A DNA stretch of 64,000 nt, taken from contig JBBQXZ010000001.1 in assembly GCA_038209145.1 (NCBI GenBank), positions 524 to 64,523 of the forward strand, given 5' to 3'. Origin of the DNA: Cytophagales bacterium. Lineage in GTDB: Bacteria > Bacteroidota > Bacteroidia > Cytophagales > Cyclobacteriaceae. The position numbers and the translations under genes are program-made. Shown in pieces: positions 46,668 to 64,000 of this stretch. Position 1 is the first letter of the stretch. Every line of letters begins with the position of its first letter. A model generated the notes under the pieces. That model had not been told where the DNA came from. It saw nothing but the letters and a program-made list of their open reading frames with translations, and made no database searches.

Positions 46668-46943
46668 AACTTAAATTGAAATTTAAGATTAAACACTTTT
46701 TCCGAAATATCAAAAATTAAAAATCTGTGTTAAAAATTTCCGGTCAAATAATTCTAATTGGATTTGATTGAGAATTCAGCTATAATTGATAACGTTTTGC
46801 AAAGATTCCAAATTAACAGGATAGTACAGGACAGTATTTCAGTTGTTCCACCTTTTATTTATATGTTGGAATCAGCAACAAATTAAAAACTTTCATTTCA
46901 TTATTCCGTGCCCATTAAAAAATTTAACCTTATTCACCACCAA

Positions 46944-49900
46944 ATGAAAAATTTGAACATACTTCTCAAAAGTTTTTTATTCGTGTTCCTCGTTTGGACA
47001 GCCGTTAGCTGTGGTCCAGAGGAAGAAGCGTTGACCTTGAGAAAAGGAAACCATATTATGCTGATTGGAAACAACCTGGGGTCGCGCATGATGGATTATG
47101 GACATTTCGAAACAGAAATGCATGTTAGGTATCCCGATTCCTTACTTTTTATCCGAAATATGAGTGATGCGGGGGATACGCCTGGCTTTAGGGCTCACTC
47201 GGGAAGAAATACTCCATGGGCATTTCCAGGTGCGGAAAAATTCCAAACGGAATTGGCAACACCCTCCGGTAGTGAAGGGCATTTGGAATACCCCGATGAG
47301 TGGCTTACTCGCTTGAAGGCAGACATCATAGTAGGCTTCTTTGGTTACAATGAGAGTTTCGAAGGTCTGGATGGGGTTGAGCTTTGGAAAGAAGAACTTG
47401 AGGCTTTTATTGAACATACCAAGGGACAAAATTACAATGGAAATCTCCCTGCACAATTGGCACTAGTATCTCCCATTGCCTTTGAAGACCTCTCTGACTT
47501 GTACGACTTACCTAATGGGGAGAAAGAAAATGAAAACCTGGCACTTTATACCCAGGCCATGAAAGAAGTAGCAGAAAGAAACCAGGTTTTTTTCATTGAC
47601 GCACTTGAGCCTTCCAAAAAATGGTATGCCTCCAGCAAAGACCCACTTACCATCGATGGGTTTCAGTTAAATGAAGAAGGCTATAAGAAATTTTCCGTTT
47701 TTTTGGCGGAAAAACTTTTTGGCAAAAACAAAGTGCGTGCTGAAGATTACCGCGCCCAAATCCATGAAACCGTAATGGAAAAAAACTGGATGTGGCATAA
47801 TGACTACAAAATACCCAACGGTGTTCACGTATTTGGTCGGAGGTATAATCCTTTCGGACCGGACAACTATCCCTTCGAAATTGAAAAAATACGGCAGATG
47901 ACTGACAATCGGGACCAGGCCATCTGGGCCGCCAACAAAGGAGAGTCCTTTGACTTGGTAACCGCAGATGCCAATACCCGCAAGTTGCCAGAAGTTGAAA
48001 CCAATTACAGCCCCGAAAAAAACGGAAGTTTGGAATATTTGTATGGACAGGCTGCTCTGGATAAAATCCAAGTTCCTGAAGGATATAAATTGGAGTTGTT
48101 TGCCTCCGAAGTCGAATTCCCTGATTTGGCAAACCCAGTCCAAATGACCTTTGACCACAAGGGCCGCCTGTGGGTAGCTGTAATGCCAAGTTATCCGCAC
48201 TACAAGCCGGGAGATGCAAAGCCAAATGACAAAATTCTGATTTTGGAAGATACCAACAAGGACGGCAAAGCCGATAAGCAAACTGTTTTTGCGGATGGCC
48301 TCCATCTGCCCATAGGATTGGAGATCGCTCCGGAAGGGGTATATGTATCTCAGGGTACAAATTTGGTGATCCTAAAGGACCTTGATGGCGATGATCACGC
48401 AGATACCAAAGAAATCCTGATGAGCGGTTTCGATGACCACGATACCCACCACAATATCAGTGCGTTTGTCGCAGACCCTTCAGGAGCTATTTATATGGGA
48501 GAGGGGGTATTCCTTCATACAAACGTGGAAACGCCCTATGGCCCAGTACGTGCTACCAACGGAGGGTTTTACCGATATAATCCGGCAAGAAGACACCTGG
48601 AAAGAACAGCCCAACTTCCCATTCCCAACCCGTGGGGAATAGCCTTCGATGAGTGGGGACAAAATTTCTTCGCCGAAACTTCCGGACCCGATGTACGTTG
48701 GATGATGCCGGGTTCTGTAAAACCGCGTTATGGGGAAGCAACACATAAAGGGGCTAACTTAATTGAAGACGCGCACCGTGTACGGCCCACCTCCGGACTG
48801 GAGTTTGTTTCCAGCAGGCACTTTCCTGATGAGGTTCAAGGAGATATGTTGATCAACAACACCATCGGCTTCCTTGGAATGAAGCAGCATGTAATGGAAG
48901 ATGACGGTACGGGTTATAAAAGCCGACACCGGCAAGATTTGGTGAAAAGTGATGACCGAAATTTCCGTCCAGTAGACATGGAATTTGCACCGGATGGATC
49001 GCTATATTTTATAGATTGGCACAATATCTTGGTAGGCCATATGCAGCACAATGCAAGAGATCCTTTACGTGACCATGTACATGGAAGGGTTTACCGCATT
49101 ACCTATCCCAGCCGACCTCTCATTACTCCGCCGCCAATAGCAGGAGCAAGCATTGATCAATTATTGGAAAACCTAAAACTACCCGAATTTCGGGCAAGGT
49201 ATAGAACCAGGTCTGAATTAAGGGGCAAAAATGTGGATGAAGTACTGTCTAAATTAAAAACTTGGGCAGAAAATCTGGACAAAAAGGACCCCAAGTATGA
49301 ACACCACGTGTTGGAAGCACTTTGGGTATCGTGGGGGCTAAATAAAGTAGATCAGGATTTGCTCAAGCAGATGCTGGAAGCCAACGATCCAAGAGCACGT
49401 GCAGCAGCGGCTAGGGTGTTGCGCTATACAGGTCATCAGGTGCCCAATCAACTTGTACTGTTAAAGCAGGCAGCTGCCGATGAGCATGGTAGGGTACGGC
49501 TAGAAGCAATCGTGGCTGCTTCCTGGATGGATAAAGACAGCGGATTGGAAATACTAGAGGTAGCCAATGTTCATCCCATGGATGATTGGATGATTAAAGC
49601 ATTTGAAACTTCGCTTGCGCATTTGAATGGTTTCTCCCTCAGTGATGTGGTTATCAGTGCCAGTGGGAGTATTGAATTTAAAAGTAAATCTCTGGATGAG
49701 GTTATGCCTTCATCAAACACCAATTTGAAGGGTGCCGAGTTGGCACTTTATGATAAGGGAAAAATTATTTATAGTAAGGAAGGTTTTTGTATAACTTGCC
49801 ATCAAGATGACGGTAAAGGGTTGACAGCCTCCGGTTTTCCACCTTTGGCAGGAACCCAATGGGTTACTGGCAATCAAGACCGCCTGATCAAAATCATTTT

Positions 49901-50165
49901 AAATGGCCTAATGGGTCCCATAGAGGTATTGGGTAAGGAGTATCCAGGCCAAGTTCCCATGACCCCATACGGGGGCATGCTAAATGATGAGGAAATTGCT
50001 TCGGTGGCTACCTATGTAAGGAATTCATTTGGAAACGAGGCATCTTCAATTACACCTGCAAAGGTCAAATCCGTTCGTGAAGCCATTGCTGGTAAAAAGG
50101 GATTTTATTCGCCCACCGAACTTCTTCAGGAACATCCCATGGAGATGCCTACTGCAAGTAAATAG
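46944..50165 (+). CDS. Lipoprotein with SGNH-like domain, beta-propeller (PVC-type heme-binding protein family), HEAT repeats and C-terminal cytochrome c
   Basis: Lipobox AVS-C; PVQMTFDHKGRLWV, NPWGIAFDEWG, FRPVDMEFAPDGSLYFIDW, HGRVYRI; heme motif CITCHQ, FPPLAG, distal Met. Confidence 0.88.
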   Translation: MKNLNILLKSFLFVFLVWTAVSCGPEEEALTLRKGNHIMLIGNNLGSRMMDYGHFETEMHVRYPDSLLFIRNMSDAGDTPGFRAHSGRNTPWAFPGAEKFQTELATPSGSEGHLEYPDEWLTRLKADIIVGFFGYNESFEGLDGVELWKEELEAFIEHTKGQNYNGNLPAQLALVSPIAFEDLSDLYDLPNGEKENENLALYTQAMKEVAERNQVFFIDALEPSKKWYASSKDPLTIDGFQLNEEGYKKFSVFLAEKLFGKNKVRAEDYRAQIHETVMEKNWMWHNDYKIPNGVHVFGRRYNPFGPDNYPFEIEKIRQMTDNRDQAIWAANKGESFDLVTADANTRKLPEVETNYSPEKNGSLEYLYGQAALDKIQVPEGYKLELFASEVEFPDLANPVQMTFDHKGRLWVAVMPSYPHYKPGDAKPNDKILILEDTNKDGKADKQTVFADGLHLPIGLEIAPEGVYVSQGTNLVILKDLDGDDHADTKEILMSGFDDHDTHHNISAFVADPSGAIYMGEGVFLHTNVETPYGPVRATNGGFYRYNPARRHLERTAQLPIPNPWGIAFDEWGQNFFAETSGPDVRWMMPGSVKPRYGEATHKGANLIEDAHRVRPTSGLEFVSSRHFPDEVQGDMLINNTIGFLGMKQHVMEDDGTGYKSRHRQDLVKSDDRNFRPVDMEFAPDGSLYFIDWHNILVGHMQHNARDPLRDHVHGRVYRITYPSRPLITPPPIAGASIDQLLENLKLPEFRARYRTRSELRGKNVDEVLSKLKTWAENLDKKDPKYEHHVLEALWVSWGLNKVDQDLLKQMLEANDPRARAAAARVLRYTGHQVPNQLVLLKQAAADEHGRVRLEAIVAASWMDKDSGLEILEVANVHPMDDWMIKAFETSLAHLNGFSLSDVVISASGSIEFKSKSLDEVMPSSNTNLKGAELALYDKGKIIYSKEGFCITCHQDDGKGLTASGFPPLAGTQWVTGNQDRLIKIILNGLMGPIEVLGKEYPGQVPMTPYGGMLNDEEIASVATYVRNSFGNEASSITPAKVKSVREAIAGKKGFYSPTELLQEHPMEMPTASK

Positions 50166-57278: not shown

Positions 57279-58613
57279 TTAATACACCGGAAACTCCTTT
57301 TCCAAGCCTTCAAAATTGTCAATCATGTCCCAACCGTGATCGATGTATTGCCGTCTGACAGTAGGAGACAGGGAGCCGAATTGCAGGTAATTTAATGCTG
57401 CCCGAAGCCTACTTTCATCAGGGTCTCCCCAGTTGCGGGAGATGTCATCATTTACCAGGATGTCAACAGGGAATCCATCGTAGTATTCCGCTTTTCCATT
57501 GGCATTGGCTATGGCGAAGGTAATGGGTACCAGTTCCACATCATTGGTAGAAAGTGCCGTATTGTAGCGGGAAAGTGGAAAGGAACCCACCGGTTTGCCA
57601 TACGTATTTGCGCCAACCAAGGCAATATCCATGTAGGGTTCCAAACAGTTGATGATTAACTCACTCGCGGATGCAGAACCCCGTGAGGTGATAAACACAA
57701 TCTTGCCAATCTCCAGGTTTCCTCTTTTGCCAAAGTTCAGGGACTCGTTCAGGTTCGATTTGTCGCTATTCAGTGCGTTGGTATACATAAGCTTGCCGGA
57801 ATGCACACTCGGTATGAGCGCATTCATCAGTTGTTCTGCTACGTCTACAGATCCGCCTCCATTGTACCTCAGGTCTAGAATCAATTCCTTTATATTTCCT
57901 TCTTCGAAAAATTTGAGGGCCTCATCTACCTCCAGACTTTTAGTGGGCGTTTGACCTCGCGTGGCTTGAAAGCCGTTGTAAGCCCAATAACCTACATTCT
58001 TTCCGTCAATGTTGAAGATCTCGGTATGCAAAACGGAATTGGACTGGTAATCCGCCTTGGCCAAGGAACGGGTGGTGGTACTCCCGTTGGGAAGTCGCAG
58101 CGTAAAACTATTTTGAATCCCGGGAGTATTTGCCCCCAGCTGAAAGTTATATCCATTTCCTACACGGTATTCAGATACTGGTCTTCCATTTACACTTATT
58201 ATTTCCCAGCCCCGCTGCCATCCGTCCTTGCCAGCAGGGGCTTCCTTATAGACAAAAGAGAGGTATAGGTTTCCGTTTTCCCCAATGCCGAAGCCAAAAC
58301 CATAGCCGGCATTTTGTCCTGTAAAAGACCTGTCAAATGCCTCCCTGTTGGTTAAGTATGACCAGCGGTCAAGGGGTTCAAAAATCAAACTTGAAAGTAA
58401 TTCGTTATAGGTAGGAAAACTCGTCACATCCATATTTTCCGGAATCTGGGAATTCCAAAAATACCATTCCTTCATGGTCTGGTAAATGGCTTGTTTGATA
58501 TTGTTTTCAGTATTGACAGGGACTTCCTCATCGGGATAGCAAGAAAAAGTACCGCCTACTATCAAACCCAAAACCAAAAACATTGACAACCGCTTGTAAT
58601 TCATATTTTCCAC
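57279..58613 (-). CDS. S41 family peptidase, PDZ-containing lipoprotein
   Basis: Lipobox TFS-C, YWYFWN-like TMKEWYFW, LILDLRYNGGG, SASASE, GANTYGK. Confidence 0.9.
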   Translation of the reverse strand: MENMNYKRLSMFLVLGLIVGGTFSCYPDEEVPVNTENNIKQAIYQTMKEWYFWNSQIPENMDVTSFPTYNELLSSLIFEPLDRWSYLTNREAFDRSFTGQNAGYGFGFGIGENGNLYLSFVYKEAPAGKDGWQRGWEIISVNGRPVSEYRVGNGYNFQLGANTPGIQNSFTLRLPNGSTTTRSLAKADYQSNSVLHTEIFNIDGKNVGYWAYNGFQATRGQTPTKSLEVDEALKFFEEGNIKELILDLRYNGGGSVDVAEQLMNALIPSVHSGKLMYTNALNSDKSNLNESLNFGKRGNLEIGKIVFITSRGSASASELIINCLEPYMDIALVGANTYGKPVGSFPLSRYNTALSTNDVELVPITFAIANANGKAEYYDGFPVDILVNDDISRNWGDPDESRLRAALNYLQFGSLSPTVRRQYIDHGWDMIDNFEGLEKEFPVY

Positions 58614-60777: not shown

Positions 60778-60886
60778 ACCAGTTTCAGTTGGTTTACAGC
60801 TATTTGGCCCTTTTTCTGTCCTTGAAGGTTTAGAAAAAGGGTTTTTTTATTATCAACCTCTGAGCTTCTTTTTGGTAAAATTAGGG

Positions 60887-61118
60887 CCACAAAAGTCACA
60901 GCGTAAACACAAAGTTCACAAAGAATTTTGGGAAAAATCTTAGTTTTCAACTTGGTCCTTGAGCCTCCTTAATTATGGAAGGTTCATAGAGAGAAGTAAT
61001 TAAAACTATGTGTCCCCTGTAGTCCTCCTTTTTTGAAAGACAATAAAAACCACAAAGAAAACATAAAGTTTACAAAAAAATTTTGGGGGAAGGCTTTGTT
61101 TTTTCCGCGGACACAAAG
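60887..61118. repeat. Degenerate CACAAAG repeats and a ~28-bp imperfect direct repeat
   Basis: CACAAAG at 60908, 60917, 61051 and 61112; AAACACAAAGTTCACAAAGAATTTTGGG (60905-60932) versus AAACATAAAGTTTACAAAAAAATTTTGGG (61059-61087). Confidence 0.55.
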
Positions 61119-61219
61119 GATACGAAGCAAAAAAGGGCGGAATGTTCTTTTAAGACTATTAATAAAAATCTTTTATTTTAACCATTATATGCTTATTATC
61201 GTGTTAAAATTTGATTTAC

Positions 61220-62416
61220 ATGTCTTCTGCTATTTCACTTAACCCAGTTTATGTCCCCGACCGGGTTATATCCAGTTCTCTTCGGATTCCCACCTACGTT
61301 TATGCTTCGGTATTTTCTAGCTTATGTATTGCCGTAGGACTGATCTGGGATATTTCCTGGCACATGAGCGTTGGCAGAGACGGTCTGTTTTCGCCGCCGC
61401 ATCTGGTCATGTACCTGGGAGCTGTGGTCGCGGGGGTTTTCTCAGGCGTACGGGTTCTGAAAACAAGCTTTTGGGGAGATGCTGGGGAAAAGGCAGCAAA
61501 CATTAAGTTTTGGGGTATATTTCACGGGTCGCTGGGTGCCATGTTTTGCATTTGGGGTGCTTTTGCTATGTTGACCTCGGCTCCCTTTGATGATTGGTGG
61601 CACAATACCTATGGGTTGGACATTAAAATTCTTTCGCCTCCCCATTTGGTGTTAGGCTTGGGGATGATCATGATACAGTTTGGCGCCATCGTAAGTGTAT
61701 TGGCAACGCAGAACAATTTTAACCTTTCAGAAAATCCAGCAATGAAATCCCGTTTACGCTGGTTGTTTGGGTTGTCTGCCGGTTTTTTGCTCGTGATGGC
61801 CTACATCATGGTATCTGAATTTTTCTTCACCAACAAAATGCATGGAGCTACCGCATACAAGGTATCAGCGATGATTTTCCCGCTTCTGATTATTTCAATT
61901 TCCTATGCATCTCCCTATAAATGGGGAGGCACCATGATGGCGGTGGCCTATTCCCTGCTTATGGCTGCCATGGTTTGGATATTGCCTTTGTTCCCGGCAG
62001 AACCCAGGCTGAGTCCCGTCTATAATCACATTACGCACTATCAACCCTTCCATTTTCCTTTACTGTTGATTGTTCCATCCATTGCAATTGACCTGATAGT
62101 AGCCAGGTGGAAAGGCATTAATTTCTGGCTTTTGGCTGTTGGTTTGTCAGTTGGGTTTTTGGCAGTATTTGTTCCGGCACAGTGGATATTTGCCGATTTT
62201 CTCCATACAGAGGCAGCCAGGGGTTGGTTTTTTGGAAGGTTTTCTTGGCCTTACAGCAGCAATCCGGACTGGGAATACCGCTTTGTGTTTTATCCTTCCT
62301 CAATAGACACAGGGTGGATGTTAGTCAAAGGGTTGGGCATCGCCTTGCTTTTTGGCATTGTCAGTTCCCGTACAGGACTTTCTTTTGGTCGGTGGATGTC
62401 TCAAGTAAAGCGTTAA
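61220..62416 (+). CDS. Polytopic membrane protein with two PmoC/AmoC-like metal motifs and a PmoA-like C-terminal half
   Basis: WDISWHMSVGRDGLFSPPH and FDDWWHNTYGLDIKILSPPH; later FP..WGGT..FP...VP....D..VFVPAQW...LH..GRWMS; about 10 hydrophobic segments. The CDS is confident; the family call is inference. Confidence 0.7.
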   Translation: MSSAISLNPVYVPDRVISSSLRIPTYVYASVFSSLCIAVGLIWDISWHMSVGRDGLFSPPHLVMYLGAVVAGVFSGVRVLKTSFWGDAGEKAANIKFWGIFHGSLGAMFCIWGAFAMLTSAPFDDWWHNTYGLDIKILSPPHLVLGLGMIMIQFGAIVSVLATQNNFNLSENPAMKSRLRWLFGLSAGFLLVMAYIMVSEFFFTNKMHGATAYKVSAMIFPLLIISISYASPYKWGGTMMAVAYSLLMAAMVWILPLFPAEPRLSPVYNHITHYQPFHFPLLLIVPSIAIDLIVARWKGINFWLLAVGLSVGFLAVFVPAQWIFADFLHTEAARGWFFGRFSWPYSSNPDWEYRFVFYPSSIDTGWMLVKGLGIALLFGIVSSRTGLSFGRWMSQVKR

Positions 62417-62420
62417 GGAA

Positions 62421-64000
62421 ATGAGAACATCCAACTATTTATTTCGATTTATCCTTTTAATAGGCTTATGGACAGGCGTCAGTAGCCATGTGGGCAGCCC
62501 CGGTGTCATATTTGAAGGCATGCTGGGTCCCTACCGGATAATGGCAACTGTCAATCCACCGGATGTCATTCCGGGAATCGCATTGGTGACGGTTATTCTG
62601 CCTGAAAATCCGAATGATATTTCACTTGAAGCCAAACCGGTTTATTGGTCTGCGGGACTGAGTGGTACCCCGGTATCAGATCCTTTGCTGCCCGTAGAAG
62701 GCGAAGTTGGGAAATATCAGCTTGAACTGTGGTTTATGGGAGTCGGTGCTTCCAGCGTGCAGTTGATCCTTAACCGGGGAACGGAGGTATTTGAAACCAC
62801 CATTCCCGTGATGGCCCTTCCGACTGCCCAAAAAGACATGCCTGTAAATTTGGGTTTGATACTTTCAGGATTGGGGCTTTTCTTGGTTGTATTGATGGTG
62901 ACCATCATTGCATCGGCCATGAGCGATAGCTTGAGAAGCCCGGGGGTACCCAGAGAAAAAAGCGGAAACGCAAGGAAAACAAAAGGGGTGGTCATTGGAA
63001 CGGTCTGCATGCTCCTGATCCTGTGGAGTGGGAAATCCTGGTGGGATAATGAAGCCGACAGTTATTTGAGAAATATATACACCCCCATAGCTGGCAATGC
63101 CCGTGTGGAATTTTCCGATCAGGGAAATTTTTTGGAGCTTACGATAGATAAGGAGCAGTTGCAGTGGGGCAGTACTGTCCGAAAAATGAGCTATATTGTT
63201 CCGGATCACGGCAAGTTGATGCACCTTTTTTTGATCCGAAAGGGAGACTTGGATGTGTTTGCCCACCTGCATCCACAGCGGATTGATTCGCTGCATTTTC
63301 GAAGTTTGCTGCCTGATTTGCCCGCGGGTGATTACCACGTTTTTGCGGATTTCACACGGTTTACGGGCTTTTCAGAAACCATCGTCGGTGAACTTACCCT
63401 TCCTGAGAAAGAACCTTTCCGGCTGATATCTGACCAAGAGGTCTCGCTGGGTAGGGATGACAGCTTCCTTATTTCCAGTAAAACCTCCTCCCAGCCTACT
63501 TCCAATTTGCTGGATGTGGATTTTCTTGTTTGCGGAAAACCGGGCATGCGCATTGATCTTGCCGGCGGATATGGGGCCATGTGGCAATCCGAGACGGAGG
63601 ATTATAAGGCAGGGAAATTGTATAGCCTCGATTTTGAGTTGTTTGATGCCGATGGAAATCCAGCTAATTTGGAGCCTTATTTGGGAATGATGGGGCATGC
63701 TGTAGCCATGAAACATGACGGCTCGGTCTATATCCATCTACATCCTACCGGCAACTATTCAATGGGTTCCCAGGAAATGCTTCTGGAACGCTTTGCCTCC
63801 GGAAAAACCGGGTTTGGACAACTACCTGCGGGGATGACGTTTATGGATAGCGTGGATCAGGTGATTTCTCTAATGGACCAACTTCCCCCTGAGGAGCGGG
63901 ACAGCTTGCTGATGGGAGGCGAAATGCACCAAATGCCCGATGATCCGGAACATGAGGGACATCAAATGGTAAGTTTTCCCTATGCTTTTCCGGAAAGCGG
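62421..64000 (+). CDS. Exported, two-TM-anchored His/Met-rich protein with predicted N-terminal His (PmoB-like topology); runs off the window end
   Basis: Manual translation, open to 64000 (526+ aa): MRTSNYLFRFILLIGLWTGVSS-HVGSPGVIFEG; TM helices at about aa 143-167 and 189-208; HGKLMH, FAHLHP, GMMGH, YIHLHP, MHQM..EHEGHQM. Not in the ORF track because no stop lies in the window. Confidence 0.8.
   Translation, partial: MRTSNYLFRFILLIGLWTGVSSHVGSPGVIFEGMLGPYRIMATVNPPDVIPGIALVTVILPENPNDISLEAKPVYWSAGLSGTPVSDPLLPVEGEVGKYQLELWFMGVGASSVQLILNRGTEVFETTIPVMALPTAQKDMPVNLGLILSGLGLFLVVLMVTIIASAMSDSLRSPGVPREKSGNARKTKGVVIGTVCMLLILWSGKSWWDNEADSYLRNIYTPIAGNARVEFSDQGNFLELTIDKEQLQWGSTVRKMSYIVPDHGKLMHLFLIRKGDLDVFAHLHPQRIDSLHFRSLLPDLPAGDYHVFADFTRFTGFSETIVGELTLPEKEPFRLISDQEVSLGRDDSFLISSKTSSQPTSNLLDVDFLVCGKPGMRIDLAGGYGAMWQSETEDYKAGKLYSLDFELFDADGNPANLEPYLGMMGHAVAMKHDGSVYIHLHPTGNYSMGSQEMLLERFASGKTGFGQLPAGMTFMDSVDQVISLMDQLPPEERDSLLMGGEMHQMPDDPEHEGHQMVSFPYAFPES

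What the first reader, a model, noticed from the sequence alone, without database searches (positions are those of the whole stretch)
61349..61645. Both PmoC metal-site signatures present with the right spacing
Motif 1, D-ISW-H-MSVGRDGLFSPP-H (D x3 H x12 H; 61349-61402), matches recalled PmoC D-GTW-H-QTIVRDTDFTPS-H, including W, RD, F and P. Motif 2, D-DWW-H-NTYGLDIKILSPP-H (D x3 H x13 H; 61589-61645), matches recalled PmoC N-EWG-H-TFWFMEELFVAPL-H with Asn replaced by Asp. The first ligands are 80 aa apart (71 in PmoC). The two motifs also resemble each other (SPPH), pointing to an internal duplication. An Asp at the CuD-equivalent position could alter the metal or chemistry, for example a dinuclear or Fe/Zn site (inference).
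Basis: partly seen in the sequence, partly recalled or inferred. Interest (0 to 1): 0.85.

Follow-up and report, generated by a model that had tools for sequence, protein, structure and literature searches.

The report
PmoC-like double metal site protein
An uncharacterised 10-helix membrane protein, common in non-methanotrophic bacteria, carries two conserved Asp-His-His motifs; the first matches the copper site of methane monooxygenase subunit C well above chance, so this may be a distant, unstudied relative of that metal centre.

Summary
ORF 61220-62416 (+, 398 aa) encodes D44-x3-H48-x12-H61 and D124-x3-H128-x13-H142 at the stated coordinates.

- **Conservation.** The six residues are DHHDHH in 205 of 219 homologues. 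D44 and H61 never vary.
- **Topology.** Each triad sits at the periplasmic end of a helix-loop-helix hairpin, TM1-2 and TM3-4. The two hairpins are a tandem duplication (hhalign 91%).
- **Motif 1 versus PmoC CuC.** The match is statistically real: hhalign 83-93%, P 1e-5 to 3e-7, against 0.48 for a reversed control. AmoC is the only recurrent Pfam or NCBIfam hit among relatives, but always below the curated cut-off.
- **Motif 2 versus PmoC CuD.** The match is only at pattern level.
- **Membership.** This is not an AmoC/PmoC member. It has 10 TM helices, no Foldseek match, no pmoA or pmoB, and heterotrophic hosts.
- **Partner gene.** The gene is co-transcribed with a conserved periplasmic His-rich protein. 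That protein has an invariant N-terminal His, two TM helices and two HLHP motifs.

Best reading: a new family with a PmoC-like, periplasm-facing metal centre, probably copper. Its function is unknown.

The parts
61220..62416 (+). Gene for a 398-aa, roughly 10-TM inner-membrane protein of a large uncharacterised family. The mechanical ORF starts at TTG 61211; ATG 61220 matches the 398-aa length of homologues.
   Evidence: AF2 model pLDDT 88.3, pTM 0.87. No Pfam, NCBIfam or PDB sequence hit.
61292..61474 (+). Hairpin 1: TM1 (residues 25-50), loop, TM2 (59-85).
   Evidence: AF2 secondary structure. hhalign to the PmoC CuC hairpin gives Prob 93%, P 2.9e-7.
61349..61402 (+). Motif 1: D44-I-S-W47-H48-M-S-V-G-R53-D54-G-L-F-S-P-P-H61. 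D and H lie one helical turn apart at the periplasmic end of TM1, and H61 lies at the start of TM2. It aligns with PmoC CuC D156/H160/H173, including R165.
61532..61717 (+). Hairpin 2: TM3 (residues 105-131), loop, TM4 (140-166). It is a tandem duplicate of hairpin 1.
   Evidence: hhalign of hairpin 1 versus hairpin 2 gives Prob 90.7%, P 1.2e-6 over 67 columns, in register for all three ligands.
61589..61645 (+). Motif 2: D124-D-W-W127-H128-N-T-Y-G-L-D134-I-K-I-L-S-P-P-H142. It is collinear with PmoC CuD N227/H231/H245, with Asp in place of Asn.
   Evidence: Not significant on its own versus the CuD hairpin.
61736..62404 (+). C-terminal six-TM region (residues 173-395). Conserved periplasmic-loop motifs are LPLFPAEP, NxxTH and ARNWFFG. 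E200 and H208 are conserved, and D291 lies mid-membrane. This region shows no similarity to PmoC or to hairpins 1 and 2.
62421..64000 (+). Partner gene, starting 4 nt after the stop codon and running off the end of the window (about 552 aa in full). Order of parts: signal peptide, beta-sandwich domain, two TM helices, then a His-rich beta-rich periplasmic region.
   Evidence: The pair is conserved in 8 of 9 genomic contexts, from Bacteroidota to Binataceae and Zixibacteria.
62487..62489 (+). Codon of His23 of the partner. It is the predicted first residue after signal-peptide cleavage (VSS|HVGSPG) and is invariant in 55 homologues.
   Evidence: The cleavage site itself is inferred from the A/S-x-A/S|H pattern.
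63264..63272 (+). Partner H282-L-H284 (motif FAHLHP); both histidines are invariant. With H268 upstream this gives a putative 3-His site.
   Evidence: Weak internal repeat with the second HLHP region (P 0.003).
63735..63743 (+). Partner H439-L-H441 (motif IHLHP); both histidines are invariant. With H426 upstream this gives a putative second 3-His site.

Best explanation
The gene encodes a member of a large, unnamed family of about 400-aa inner-membrane proteins with N-in, C-in topology and 10 TM helices.

Its first four helices are a tandem duplication of a helix-loop-helix hairpin. Each hairpin places an Asp and a His one turn apart at the periplasmic end of one helix (D-x2-W-H) and a third His at the start of the next helix ((S/T)-P-P-H).

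The two Asp/His/His triads therefore sit side by side at the periplasmic membrane boundary. They most likely bind one or two metal ions, probably copper, as the CuC and CuD sites of PmoC/AmoC do. This four-helix core is probably a very distant homologue of the PmoC core.

The protein works with the co-transcribed periplasmic partner, a membrane-anchored beta-sandwich protein with an invariant N-terminal His, two H-x13-H-L-H-P motifs and a His/Met-rich loop. The partner is inferred to deliver metal or electrons to the membrane site, or to share a site with it.

I commit to a periplasm-facing copper centre that carries out redox (oxidase or oxygenase-type) chemistry or copper relay. I rank redox chemistry slightly ahead of transport.

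**Shown:** the motifs, their conservation, the duplication, the topology, the statistical similarity to PmoC motif 1, and the gene pairing.
**Inferred:** metal binding, copper as the metal, common ancestry with PmoC, the interaction with the partner, and the activity.
For: - **Conservation.** 205 of 219 sequences are DHHDHH; D44 and H61 are invariant. W47, G52, R53, D54, W127, P141 and others are over 95% conserved.
- **Coupled substitutions.** A small clade changes H48 to E/D together with H128 and H142 to Q, which argues that the positions act together.
- **Topology.** In the AF2 model (pLDDT 88, pTM 0.87), D44/H48 lie at the end of helix 25-50 and H61 at the start of helix 59-85. D124/H128 lie at the end of helix 105-131 and H142 at the start of helix 140-166. 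The positive-inside count puts both loops in the periplasm: 11.1 K+R on 67 inside residues against 6.2 on 90 outside residues.
- **Duplication.** hhalign Prob 90.7%.
- **Similarity to PmoC/AmoC.**
  - hhalign gives 75-83% for the whole family and 93% for hairpin 1, with P from 2.6e-5 to 2.9e-7; the reversed control gives P 0.48.
  - A PmoC HMM scores real family sequences up to 22 bits, against 5.0 for reversed and 2.7 for shuffled sequences. Many alignments run collinearly through both motifs.
  - Pfam AmoC is the only recurrent family: 11 of 57 members, and top hit in 9 of 9 selected members (E 3.6e-4 to 0.14).
  - NCBIfam AmoC_BACT and TIGR03078 are the top hits in 3 of 4 members.
  - The family consensus DISWHRSIGRDTFWTPPH is closer to PmoC DGTWHQTIVRDTDFTPSH (10 of 18 identical) than the window protein is (8 of 18). 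The shared residues include R165 and D166.
- **Partner.** The gene pair is conserved across phyla. The mature N-terminal His and ten other His are invariant. One domain resembles the copper protein PmoD (6cpd_B, prob 1.00, TM 0.53).
Against: - Every AmoC hit is below the curated cut-off (at most 20.4 bits against 26.7), and the window protein itself gets none.
- The robust hhalign core is only 20 columns.
- Motif 2 alone is not significant against CuD.
- Foldseek finds no PDB analogue. AmoC 9leg_C appears only at noise level (E 1.1, TM 0.13-0.17).
- The architecture differs: 10 TM helices against 5-6, and PmoC's two N-terminal helices are absent.
- No PmoA is present, and the partner shows no sequence similarity to PmoB (P 0.13).
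- I could not obtain model coordinates, so the distances between ligands were not measured.
- His-to-Gln replacements in one clade show that the second triad is not universally a metal site.
- There are no experimental data of any kind.
Confidence: 0.55

Rival explanations
1. Convergence. The family has independently evolved a helix-end D-x3-H plus next-helix H triad, a geometrically simple way to chelate a metal between two TM helices. It shares no ancestry with PmoC, and the metal could be Zn or Fe with a hydrolytic or structural role.
For: The significant alignment core is only 20 columns. There is no fold match. The TM number differs and the hosts differ. Motif 2 is not significant against CuD. 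The PmoC CuC site itself binds Zn in some crystals (PMC11811604), so the triad is not copper-specific.
Against: The shared residues go beyond the ligands: W at +3, R-D at +9/+10, T/S-P before the last His. The loop length is identical at x12. A second triad lies collinear with the x13 spacing. The extra 9 residues fall in the cytoplasmic loop. Similarity increases for the family consensus, as expected for divergence.
Confidence: 0.25
2. Metal transporter. Together with the periplasmic N-terminal-His partner, the pair is a copper (or other metal) uptake or metallation system analogous to CopC-CopD or YcnI-YcnJ. The D/H/H triads are the periplasmic entry site of a translocation path rather than a catalytic centre.
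For: The pair combines a periplasmic protein with an invariant mature N-terminal His and a polytopic membrane protein. The partner has a His/Met-rich loop (MGGxMHxxxxDxxHxxH). D291 is conserved mid-membrane in TM8. The module stands alone in variable, housekeeping-like neighbourhoods of heterotrophs.
Against: No CopC, CopD or YcnI model matches either protein. Few conserved ligating residues lie along the membrane core. Most conservation is in the periplasmic loops and helix ends, which looks more like an active site or a docking surface. No metal-responsive regulator is adjacent.
Confidence: 0.3
3. Not a metal site. The conserved Asp, His and Trp residues form a polar or aromatic network for binding a substrate such as a lipid head group or a glycan, or for proton transfer.
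For: One clade tolerates H128Q and H142Q together with H48E/D. Gln is a poor metal ligand but a good hydrogen-bond partner. Trp-rich motifs (WDISWH, FDDWWH) are typical of interfacial lipid or sugar binding.
Against: D44 and H61 are invariant and 94% of sequences keep all six residues. The i/i+4 Asp-His plus distal His arrangement is a classic metal triad and is identical to a proven copper site. The partner is very rich in histidine.
Confidence: 0.12

Closest known systems
PmoC/AmoC, subunit C of copper membrane monooxygenases (Pfam PF04896, TIGR03078, NF041641; PDB 7S4H chain C)
   Same: Both have two adjacent triads at the ends of consecutive TM hairpins. D-x3-H-x12-H corresponds to CuC D156/H160/H173, and [D/N]-x3-H-x13-H corresponds to CuD N227/H231/H245. 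Shared non-ligand residues are W, R165-D166, T/S-P and a P before the last His. The order is collinear with similar spacing (80 against 71 residues). Profile similarity is sub-threshold but reproducible.
   Different: This protein has 398 aa and about 10 TM helices, against about 260 aa and 5-6 helices. It lacks PmoC's two N-terminal helices and adds six C-terminal helices with no similarity to PmoC. Asp replaces the CuD Asn. Its two hairpins are still recognisably duplicated, whereas PmoC's are not. There is no Foldseek match and no pmoA or pmoB neighbours. The hosts are heterotrophic Bacteroidota, Binatota and Zixibacteria rather than methane, ammonia or alkane oxidisers.
PmoB/AmoB, for the partner protein
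   Same: The order of parts is the same: signal peptide, a His as first mature residue, a periplasmic beta-sandwich domain, two TM helices, then a second periplasmic beta-rich region. H-x-H motifs are present, and PmoB CuB uses His33, His137 and His139 (PMC11811604).
   Different: There is no detectable sequence similarity (hhalign P 0.13) and PmoB is not among the top 50 Foldseek hits. The H-x-H motifs lie after the TM hairpin rather than in the N-terminal domain. The partner is about 140 residues longer.
CopC-CopD and YcnI-YcnJ copper acquisition pairs
   Same: A periplasmic protein whose mature N-terminal His binds copper, paired with a polytopic inner-membrane protein. This is from my own knowledge of those families.
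   Different: No Pfam or NCBIfam match to CopC, CopD or YcnI/DUF1775 for either protein. The size and domain content differ.
PmoD/AmoD (PDB 6CPD), a copper protein encoded in CuMMO operons
   Same: One beta-sandwich domain of the partner model superposes on the whole PmoD soluble domain (127 columns, rmsd 4.3 Å, TM 0.53 normalised by the target, prob 1.00).
   Different: Identity is 17% and the E-value only 1.2e-3, at rank 32 among generic Ig-like hits. The fold is very common. I could not determine which domain matches, and ligand correspondence was not tested.

Membership tests
AmoC/PmoC (PF04896; TIGR03078; NF041641) | Scores above the curated cut-off of the family model | tested here: not met
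   The window protein gets no hit even at E<=10. The best relatives reach 20.4 bits against the Pfam cut-off of 26.7, and 14-18 bits against NCBIfam cut-offs of 280-319.
AmoC/PmoC (PF04896; TIGR03078; NF041641) | CuC triad Asp-x3-His-x12-His at a TM helix end and the next helix start | tested here: met
   D44/H48/H61 align with D127/H131/H144 of 7ev9_C. They are conserved in at least 94% of the family and placed on helix ends in the AF2 model.
AmoC/PmoC (PF04896; TIGR03078; NF041641) | CuD triad Asn-x3-His-x13-His | tested here: not met
   The spacing and both His are present (D124/H128/H142). The first ligand, however, is Asp in nearly every family sequence covering it (56/57; all but about 3 of 219), whereas Asn is invariant in 80 PmoC/AmoC sequences. 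The hairpin is not significantly similar on its own.
AmoC/PmoC (PF04896; TIGR03078; NF041641) | Overall fold and size: about 250-290 aa with 5-6 TM helices | tested here: not met
   The protein has 398 aa and about 10 TM helices. Foldseek against the PDB gives AmoC 9leg_C at E 1.1 and TM 0.13-0.17, with nothing below E 0.1.
AmoC/PmoC (PF04896; TIGR03078; NF041641) | Encoded with pmoA/amoA and pmoB/amoB (CAB operon) | tested here: not met
   None of nine neighbourhoods has AMO/AmoA or Monooxygenase_B domains. The conserved partner shows no sequence similarity to PmoB.
AmoC/PmoC (PF04896; TIGR03078; NF041641) | Binds copper at CuC/CuD and supports hydrocarbon or ammonia oxidation | not testable with these tools
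   This needs metal analysis and activity assays.
CopD / CopC-CopD copper import | Match to the CopD (PF05425) and CopC models | tested here: not met
   Pfam scans of the window protein, 57 relatives, the partner and 55 partner relatives show no CopC or CopD hits.
N-terminal histidine (histidine-brace type) copper proteins, for the partner | His as the first residue of the mature protein after signal-peptide cleavage | tested here: inconclusive
   There is an invariant His directly after an A/S-x-A/S type cleavage motif in all aligned homologues across phyla. Cleavage and copper binding were not verified. AF2 confidence is below 50 for residues 18-26.
Unnamed family defined here (about 400-aa 10-TM protein with a duplicated D-x2-W-H...P-P-H hairpin) | Full-length homology, both triads present, and a partner gene downstream | tested here: met
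   There are more than 5,000 homologues at E<=1e-3 and 2,334 representatives at 50% identity. The window protein carries DHHDHH. The partner gene starts 4 nt after the stop codon.

The most novel reading that the evidence does not exclude
The membrane protein and its partner are a widespread, ancient sister lineage of the copper membrane monooxygenases. They would pair a PmoC-like catalytic core with a PmoB-like periplasmic subunit that has an N-terminal His and H-x-H sites. The core would still show the hairpin duplication from which the CuC and CuD sites arose. On this reading the pair forms a new class of membrane-bound copper oxygenase or oxidase in ordinary heterotrophic bacteria.
Probability: 0.15. 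Interest if true: 0.9.

Novelty: new variant of a known kind. Interest (0 to 1): 0.62.

Why it matters
The identity and chemistry of the pMMO/AMO active site, CuC versus CuD in PmoC, is a long-standing open problem. One reason is that the enzyme is hard to handle outside native membranes.

A large family in easily grown heterotrophs such as Mucilaginibacter and the Cyclobacteriaceae keeps the same triads and the second-sphere Arg-Asp. That would provide:
- an evolutionary outgroup showing how the double site arose by hairpin duplication, with Asp as the likely ancestral state of the CuD Asn;
- a potentially tractable model for membrane-embedded mononuclear copper sites;
- a lead to an unknown, very common two-gene metal system in Bacteroidota that currently has no annotation.

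If the resemblance turns out to be convergent, it still marks a recurrent way of building a metal site at the membrane surface.

Tried and rejected
- **Direct family assignment.** Pfam, NCBIfam and PDB sequence searches with the window protein gave nothing. A family profile against PDB sequences gave nothing.
- **Fold assignment.** Foldseek of a confident AF2 model against the PDB gave no hit below E 0.1. AmoC appeared at rank 11 but at noise level. Model coordinates are not exposed, so I could not measure ligand distances or superpose TM1-4 on PmoC.
- **Family consensus against the PmoC HMM.** The Ala/Leu-rich consensus scored lower, so this was not useful.
- **C-terminal six helices.** They show no similarity to PmoC (P 0.66) or to hairpins 1 and 2 (P 0.15-0.22), so the protein is not a PmoC-PmoA fusion or a further repeat. 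No member matched Pfam AMO/AmoA.
- **Internal repeat in PmoC itself.** None was detectable with my low-diversity alignment.
- **Partner as PmoB, YcnI or CopC.**
  - No sequence similarity to PmoB.
  - The partner profile against PDB sequences gave only a weak TM-hairpin match to CtaC (E 0.054) and spurious gp41 matches.
  - Pfam gave only scattered weak YtkA-like hits (4 of 55 members).
- **Upstream region.** I looked for a riboswitch or regulator in the 440-nt region upstream. Rfam found nothing credible, and the promoter and terminator scans were at background level.
- **Expression data.** Only metagenomic DNA runs hold this sequence.
- **Literature.** I found no paper describing this family or non-CuMMO PmoC-like proteins.
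- **Diversity of the PmoC reference set.** The genome scan with PmoC returned only gammaproteobacterial PmoC at 71-90% identity. I added three AmoC sequences from the PDB.
Full report
**1. What is in the sequence**

The finding lies inside an ORF at 61211-62416 (+). The first ATG is at 61220 and gives 398 aa, the length of most homologues. I number from that ATG.

Motif 1 is D44-ISW-H48-MSVGRDGLFSPP-H61. Motif 2 is D124-DWW-H128-NTYGLDIKILSPP-H142. The two Asp are 80 residues apart.

In all stop-free six-frame stretches of the window (42,723 residues), D-x3-H-x12-H occurs once and the two-motif combination once, both here.

**2. Was the PmoC recollection right?**

Yes. A PmoC sequence written from memory proved 100% identical to PDB chains 7ev9_C and 7s4h_C. 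It reads EQ-D127-GTW-H131-QTIVRDTDFTPS-H144 and L-N198-EWG-H202-TFWFMEELFVAPL-H216, 71 residues apart.

In the 289-residue numbering these are D156/H160/H173 (CuC) and N227/H231/H245 (CuD). The literature describes them as the two copper sites of PmoC, 5.7 Å apart, with R165 in the second sphere (PMC12576850; PMC11811604). In 80 PmoC/AmoC sequences all of these residues are invariant.

**3. The family**

The window protein has no Pfam, NCBIfam or PDB sequence match. It does have more than 5,000 homologues at E<=1e-3 in the 90% clustered database and 2,334 representatives at 50% identity. Nearly all are labelled hypothetical protein.

Named sources are mostly Bacteroidota: Lunatimonas, Indibacter, Cecembia, Belliella, Mangrovivirga, Ekhidna and Mucilaginibacter. 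Distant members come from Binataceae and Zixibacteria. None of these is a methane or ammonia oxidiser.

**4. Conservation of the six residues**

- In 56 close homologues all six residues are invariant.
- In 57 diverse full-length members (27-70% identity), D44 and H61 are invariant, D124 is present in 56 of 57, and H48, H128 and H142 in 50-52 of 57.
- Over 219 sequences covering both motifs, 205 (94%) are DHHDHH.
- The main exception is a small clade with D-[E/D]-H-D-[Q/L]-Q. Here H48, H128 and H142 change together. That argues the two triads are functionally coupled, and that triad 1 (D44, H61) is the indispensable one.
- Non-ligand positions W43, W47, G52, R53, D54, W126, W127, G132, D134, P140 and P141 are over 95% conserved.

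**5. Structure and topology**

AF2 with 56 sequences gave a confident model (pLDDT 88.3, pTM 0.87) with about ten TM helices.

- D44 and H48 lie one turn apart at the end of helix 25-50, and H61 at the start of helix 59-85.
- D124 and H128 lie at the end of helix 105-131, and H142 at the start of helix 140-166.
- Both loops are therefore on the same face.
- Positive-inside counting over 57 sequences gives 11.1 K+R on 67 predicted cytoplasmic loop residues, against 6.2 on 90 periplasmic ones. This indicates N-in/C-in topology with the motifs in the periplasm.

The second refutation criterion, opposite faces, is not met at the level of topology. I could not read coordinates, so three-dimensional distances are untested.

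**6. Internal duplication**

Profile-profile comparison of TM1-2 with TM3-4 gives Prob 90.7% and P 1.2e-6 over 67 columns. It aligns D44 with D124, H48 with H128 and H61 with H142, with a single one-residue indel.

The C-terminal six helices are unrelated to the hairpins and to PmoC.

**7. Is it related to PmoC?**

Several independent sub-threshold signals agree.

- **(a) Pfam.** A scan of 57 members returns AmoC as the only recurrent family (11 members; no other family exceeds 2). Nine selected members all have AmoC as their top hit, with E 3.6e-4 to 0.14 and 12-20 bits. They align to profile positions about 103-231, that is, from just before the CuC Asp to just after the CuD His.
- **(b) NCBIfam.** AmoC_BACT and TIGR03078 are the top hits for 3 of 4 members.
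- **(c) Custom PmoC HMM.** An HMM built from 77 PmoC sequences recovered from genomes scores family sequences up to 22 bits, and 42 sequences reach 10 bits or more. Reversed sequences reach at most 5.0 bits and shuffled sequences 2.7. Many alignments run collinearly through both motifs, with the only sizeable gap in the cytoplasmic loop.
- **(d) hhalign, whole family against PmoC.** Prob 74.8% and P 2.6e-5. After adding three AmoC PDB sequences this rises to 82.7% and P 9.6e-6, against P 0.48 for a reversed control.
- **(e) hhalign, hairpins separately.** Hairpin 1 alone against the CuC hairpin gives Prob 93% and P 2.9e-7. A relaxed realignment puts all six ligands in register.

The family consensus DISWHRSIGRDTFWTPPH shares 10 of 18 positions with PmoC DGTWHQTIVRDTDFTPSH, including R165 and D166. 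The window protein shares 8 of 18.

Several points weigh against homology.

- The robust core is only 20 columns.
- Hairpin 2 alone is not significant against the CuD hairpin (P 0.064).
- All model scores are below the curated thresholds.
- Foldseek finds no PDB analogue, and AmoC 9leg_C appears only at E 1.1.

I put the probability that the four-helix core is truly homologous to the PmoC core at about 0.6. The protein is clearly not a member of the AmoC/PmoC family as that family is defined.

**8. The neighbour**

A second gene starts 4 nt after the stop codon (ATG 62421) and runs off the end of the window.

- **Pairing.** Full-length homologues are about 552 aa (P0271 is 97% identical). The pair is conserved in 8 of 9 contexts examined, from Cyclobacteriaceae and Mucilaginibacter to Binataceae, Zixibacteria and unnamed lineages, while the other neighbours vary.
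- **Database hits.** The partner has no Pfam or PDB sequence hit.
- **N-terminus.** Its signal peptide is followed by an invariant His: VSS|HVGSPG in the window, AHVGSP or AHFNSP elsewhere.
- **Model.** AF2 (pLDDT 80, pTM 0.76) shows a seven-stranded beta domain (29-132) and two long TM helices (142-168 and 182-217) joined by a Lys/Arg-rich loop. A beta-rich periplasmic region with a helical insert follows.
- **Invariant histidines.** Besides the N-terminal H23, ten His are invariant: H263, H268, H282, H284, H426, H439, H441, H503, H511 and H514.
- **Internal repeat.** The two segments GKLMH-x13-HLHP and GMMGH-x12-HLHP align with each other weakly (P 0.003).
- **Resemblance to PmoB.** The order of parts is the same: N-terminal His, beta domain, two TM helices, beta domain, and H-x-H motifs. 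There is no sequence similarity (P 0.13).
- **Foldseek.** Hits are mostly generic Ig-like arrays. One compact hit covers the whole PmoD soluble domain (6cpd_B, prob 1.00, TM 0.53).

This partner strongly suggests a periplasmic metalloprotein, probably a copper protein. It does not prove a CuMMO relationship.

**9. Mechanism**

*Shown.* There are two conserved, duplicated Asp/His/His triads on the periplasmic ends of TM hairpins. Triad 1 is statistically similar to PmoC CuC. The gene is coupled to a His-rich periplasmic partner.

*Inferred.* The triads bind one or two metal ions, probably copper, as in PmoC. The partner supplies metal or electrons, or completes the site.

Conservation is concentrated in the periplasmic loops and helix ends: LPLFPAEP, NxxTH, ARNWFFG, E200 and H208. 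That looks more like an active site or a docking surface than a channel, so I rank a redox or enzymatic role slightly above metal import. The conserved mid-membrane D291 and the analogy with CopCD and YcnIJ keep transport a serious rival.

Whether Asp in place of the CuD Asn changes the metal or the nuclearity cannot be decided here. D124 is almost as conserved as D44. Because the two hairpins are duplicates, Asp is the likely ancestral state.

**10. Context and other checks**

The surrounding genes give no functional clue. They include a TetR regulator, an ABC1/UbiB kinase, an S41 peptidase, hisHAF-IE, gyrA and others.

The 440-nt upstream region holds no recognised RNA element. Only metagenomic DNA runs contain the locus, from sediment, mat and salt-lake samples.

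**11. Verdict**

- This is a new, very large, unannotated family with a PmoC-like double metal-site core in a different architecture.
- I classify it as a new variant of a known kind, with interest 0.62.
- The boldest reading not excluded is a sister lineage of the copper membrane monooxygenases, at about 0.15 probability.

Noticed in passing
window 62421-64000 (+): The partner gene is truncated by the window end. It has a signal peptide followed by an invariant His as predicted first mature residue (HVGSPG), a beta-sandwich domain, two TM helices, and a His-rich periplasmic region with two HLHP motifs and a His/Met-rich loop (LLMGGEMHQMPDDPEHEGHQM). Neither Pfam nor the PDB gives a hit. The order of parts resembles PmoB, but there is no sequence similarity.
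   Followed up: yes
P0271 model (partner, 97% identical to window 62421-63998): Foldseek gives a compact match of one domain to the whole soluble domain of PmoD (6cpd_B). PmoD is a copper protein encoded in methane and ammonia monooxygenase operons. Scores: prob 1.00, TM 0.53 normalised by the target, rmsd 4.3 Å, 17% identity. I could not determine which domain matches.
   Followed up: partly
family members P0201, P0235, P0260, P0224, P0240, P0258 (e.g. L086:213-1469, L090:6001-7125): A divergent clade replaces H48 with Glu/Asp and, in the same proteins, H128 with Gln (Leu or Thr in two) and H142 with Gln. It keeps D44 and H61 and the partner gene. This may be a subfamily with a different metal or with a single site.
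   Followed up: partly
window 57279-58613 (-) and L084:3393-4625: An S41 (C-terminal processing) peptidase gene lies 2.6 kb upstream in the window. One also lies directly upstream on the same strand in the Binataceae locus. This may be coincidence, or a link to maturation of the partner. It is absent from the other contexts examined.
   Followed up: no
L089:6001-7194 (P0144): One family member has no partner gene downstream. The next gene is a convergent TonB-dependent-receptor-like outer-membrane protein. The pairing is therefore frequent but not universal.
   Followed up: no
window 60907-60947 and 61061-61102: The 440-nt intergenic region upstream of the gene contains a degenerate direct repeat of about 40 nt, of the form ACAyAAAGTTyACAAA..ATTTTGGG..., with a third weaker copy near 61111-61178. 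After the ABC1 kinase gene there is a terminator-like hairpin followed by a T-run near 60808-60850. The function is unknown, and Rfam gives no match.
   Followed up: partly
window 61211 versus 61220: The mechanical ORF begins at TTG 61211. ATG 61220 gives 398 aa, the modal length of homologues, so it is probably the true start.
   Followed up: partly
window 46908-50165 (+): A large 1085-aa ORF combines GDSL-lipase-like, DUF7133, HEAT-repeat and C-terminal cytochrome c domains. It is an uncharacterised multidomain haem protein and is unrelated to the finding.
   Followed up: no
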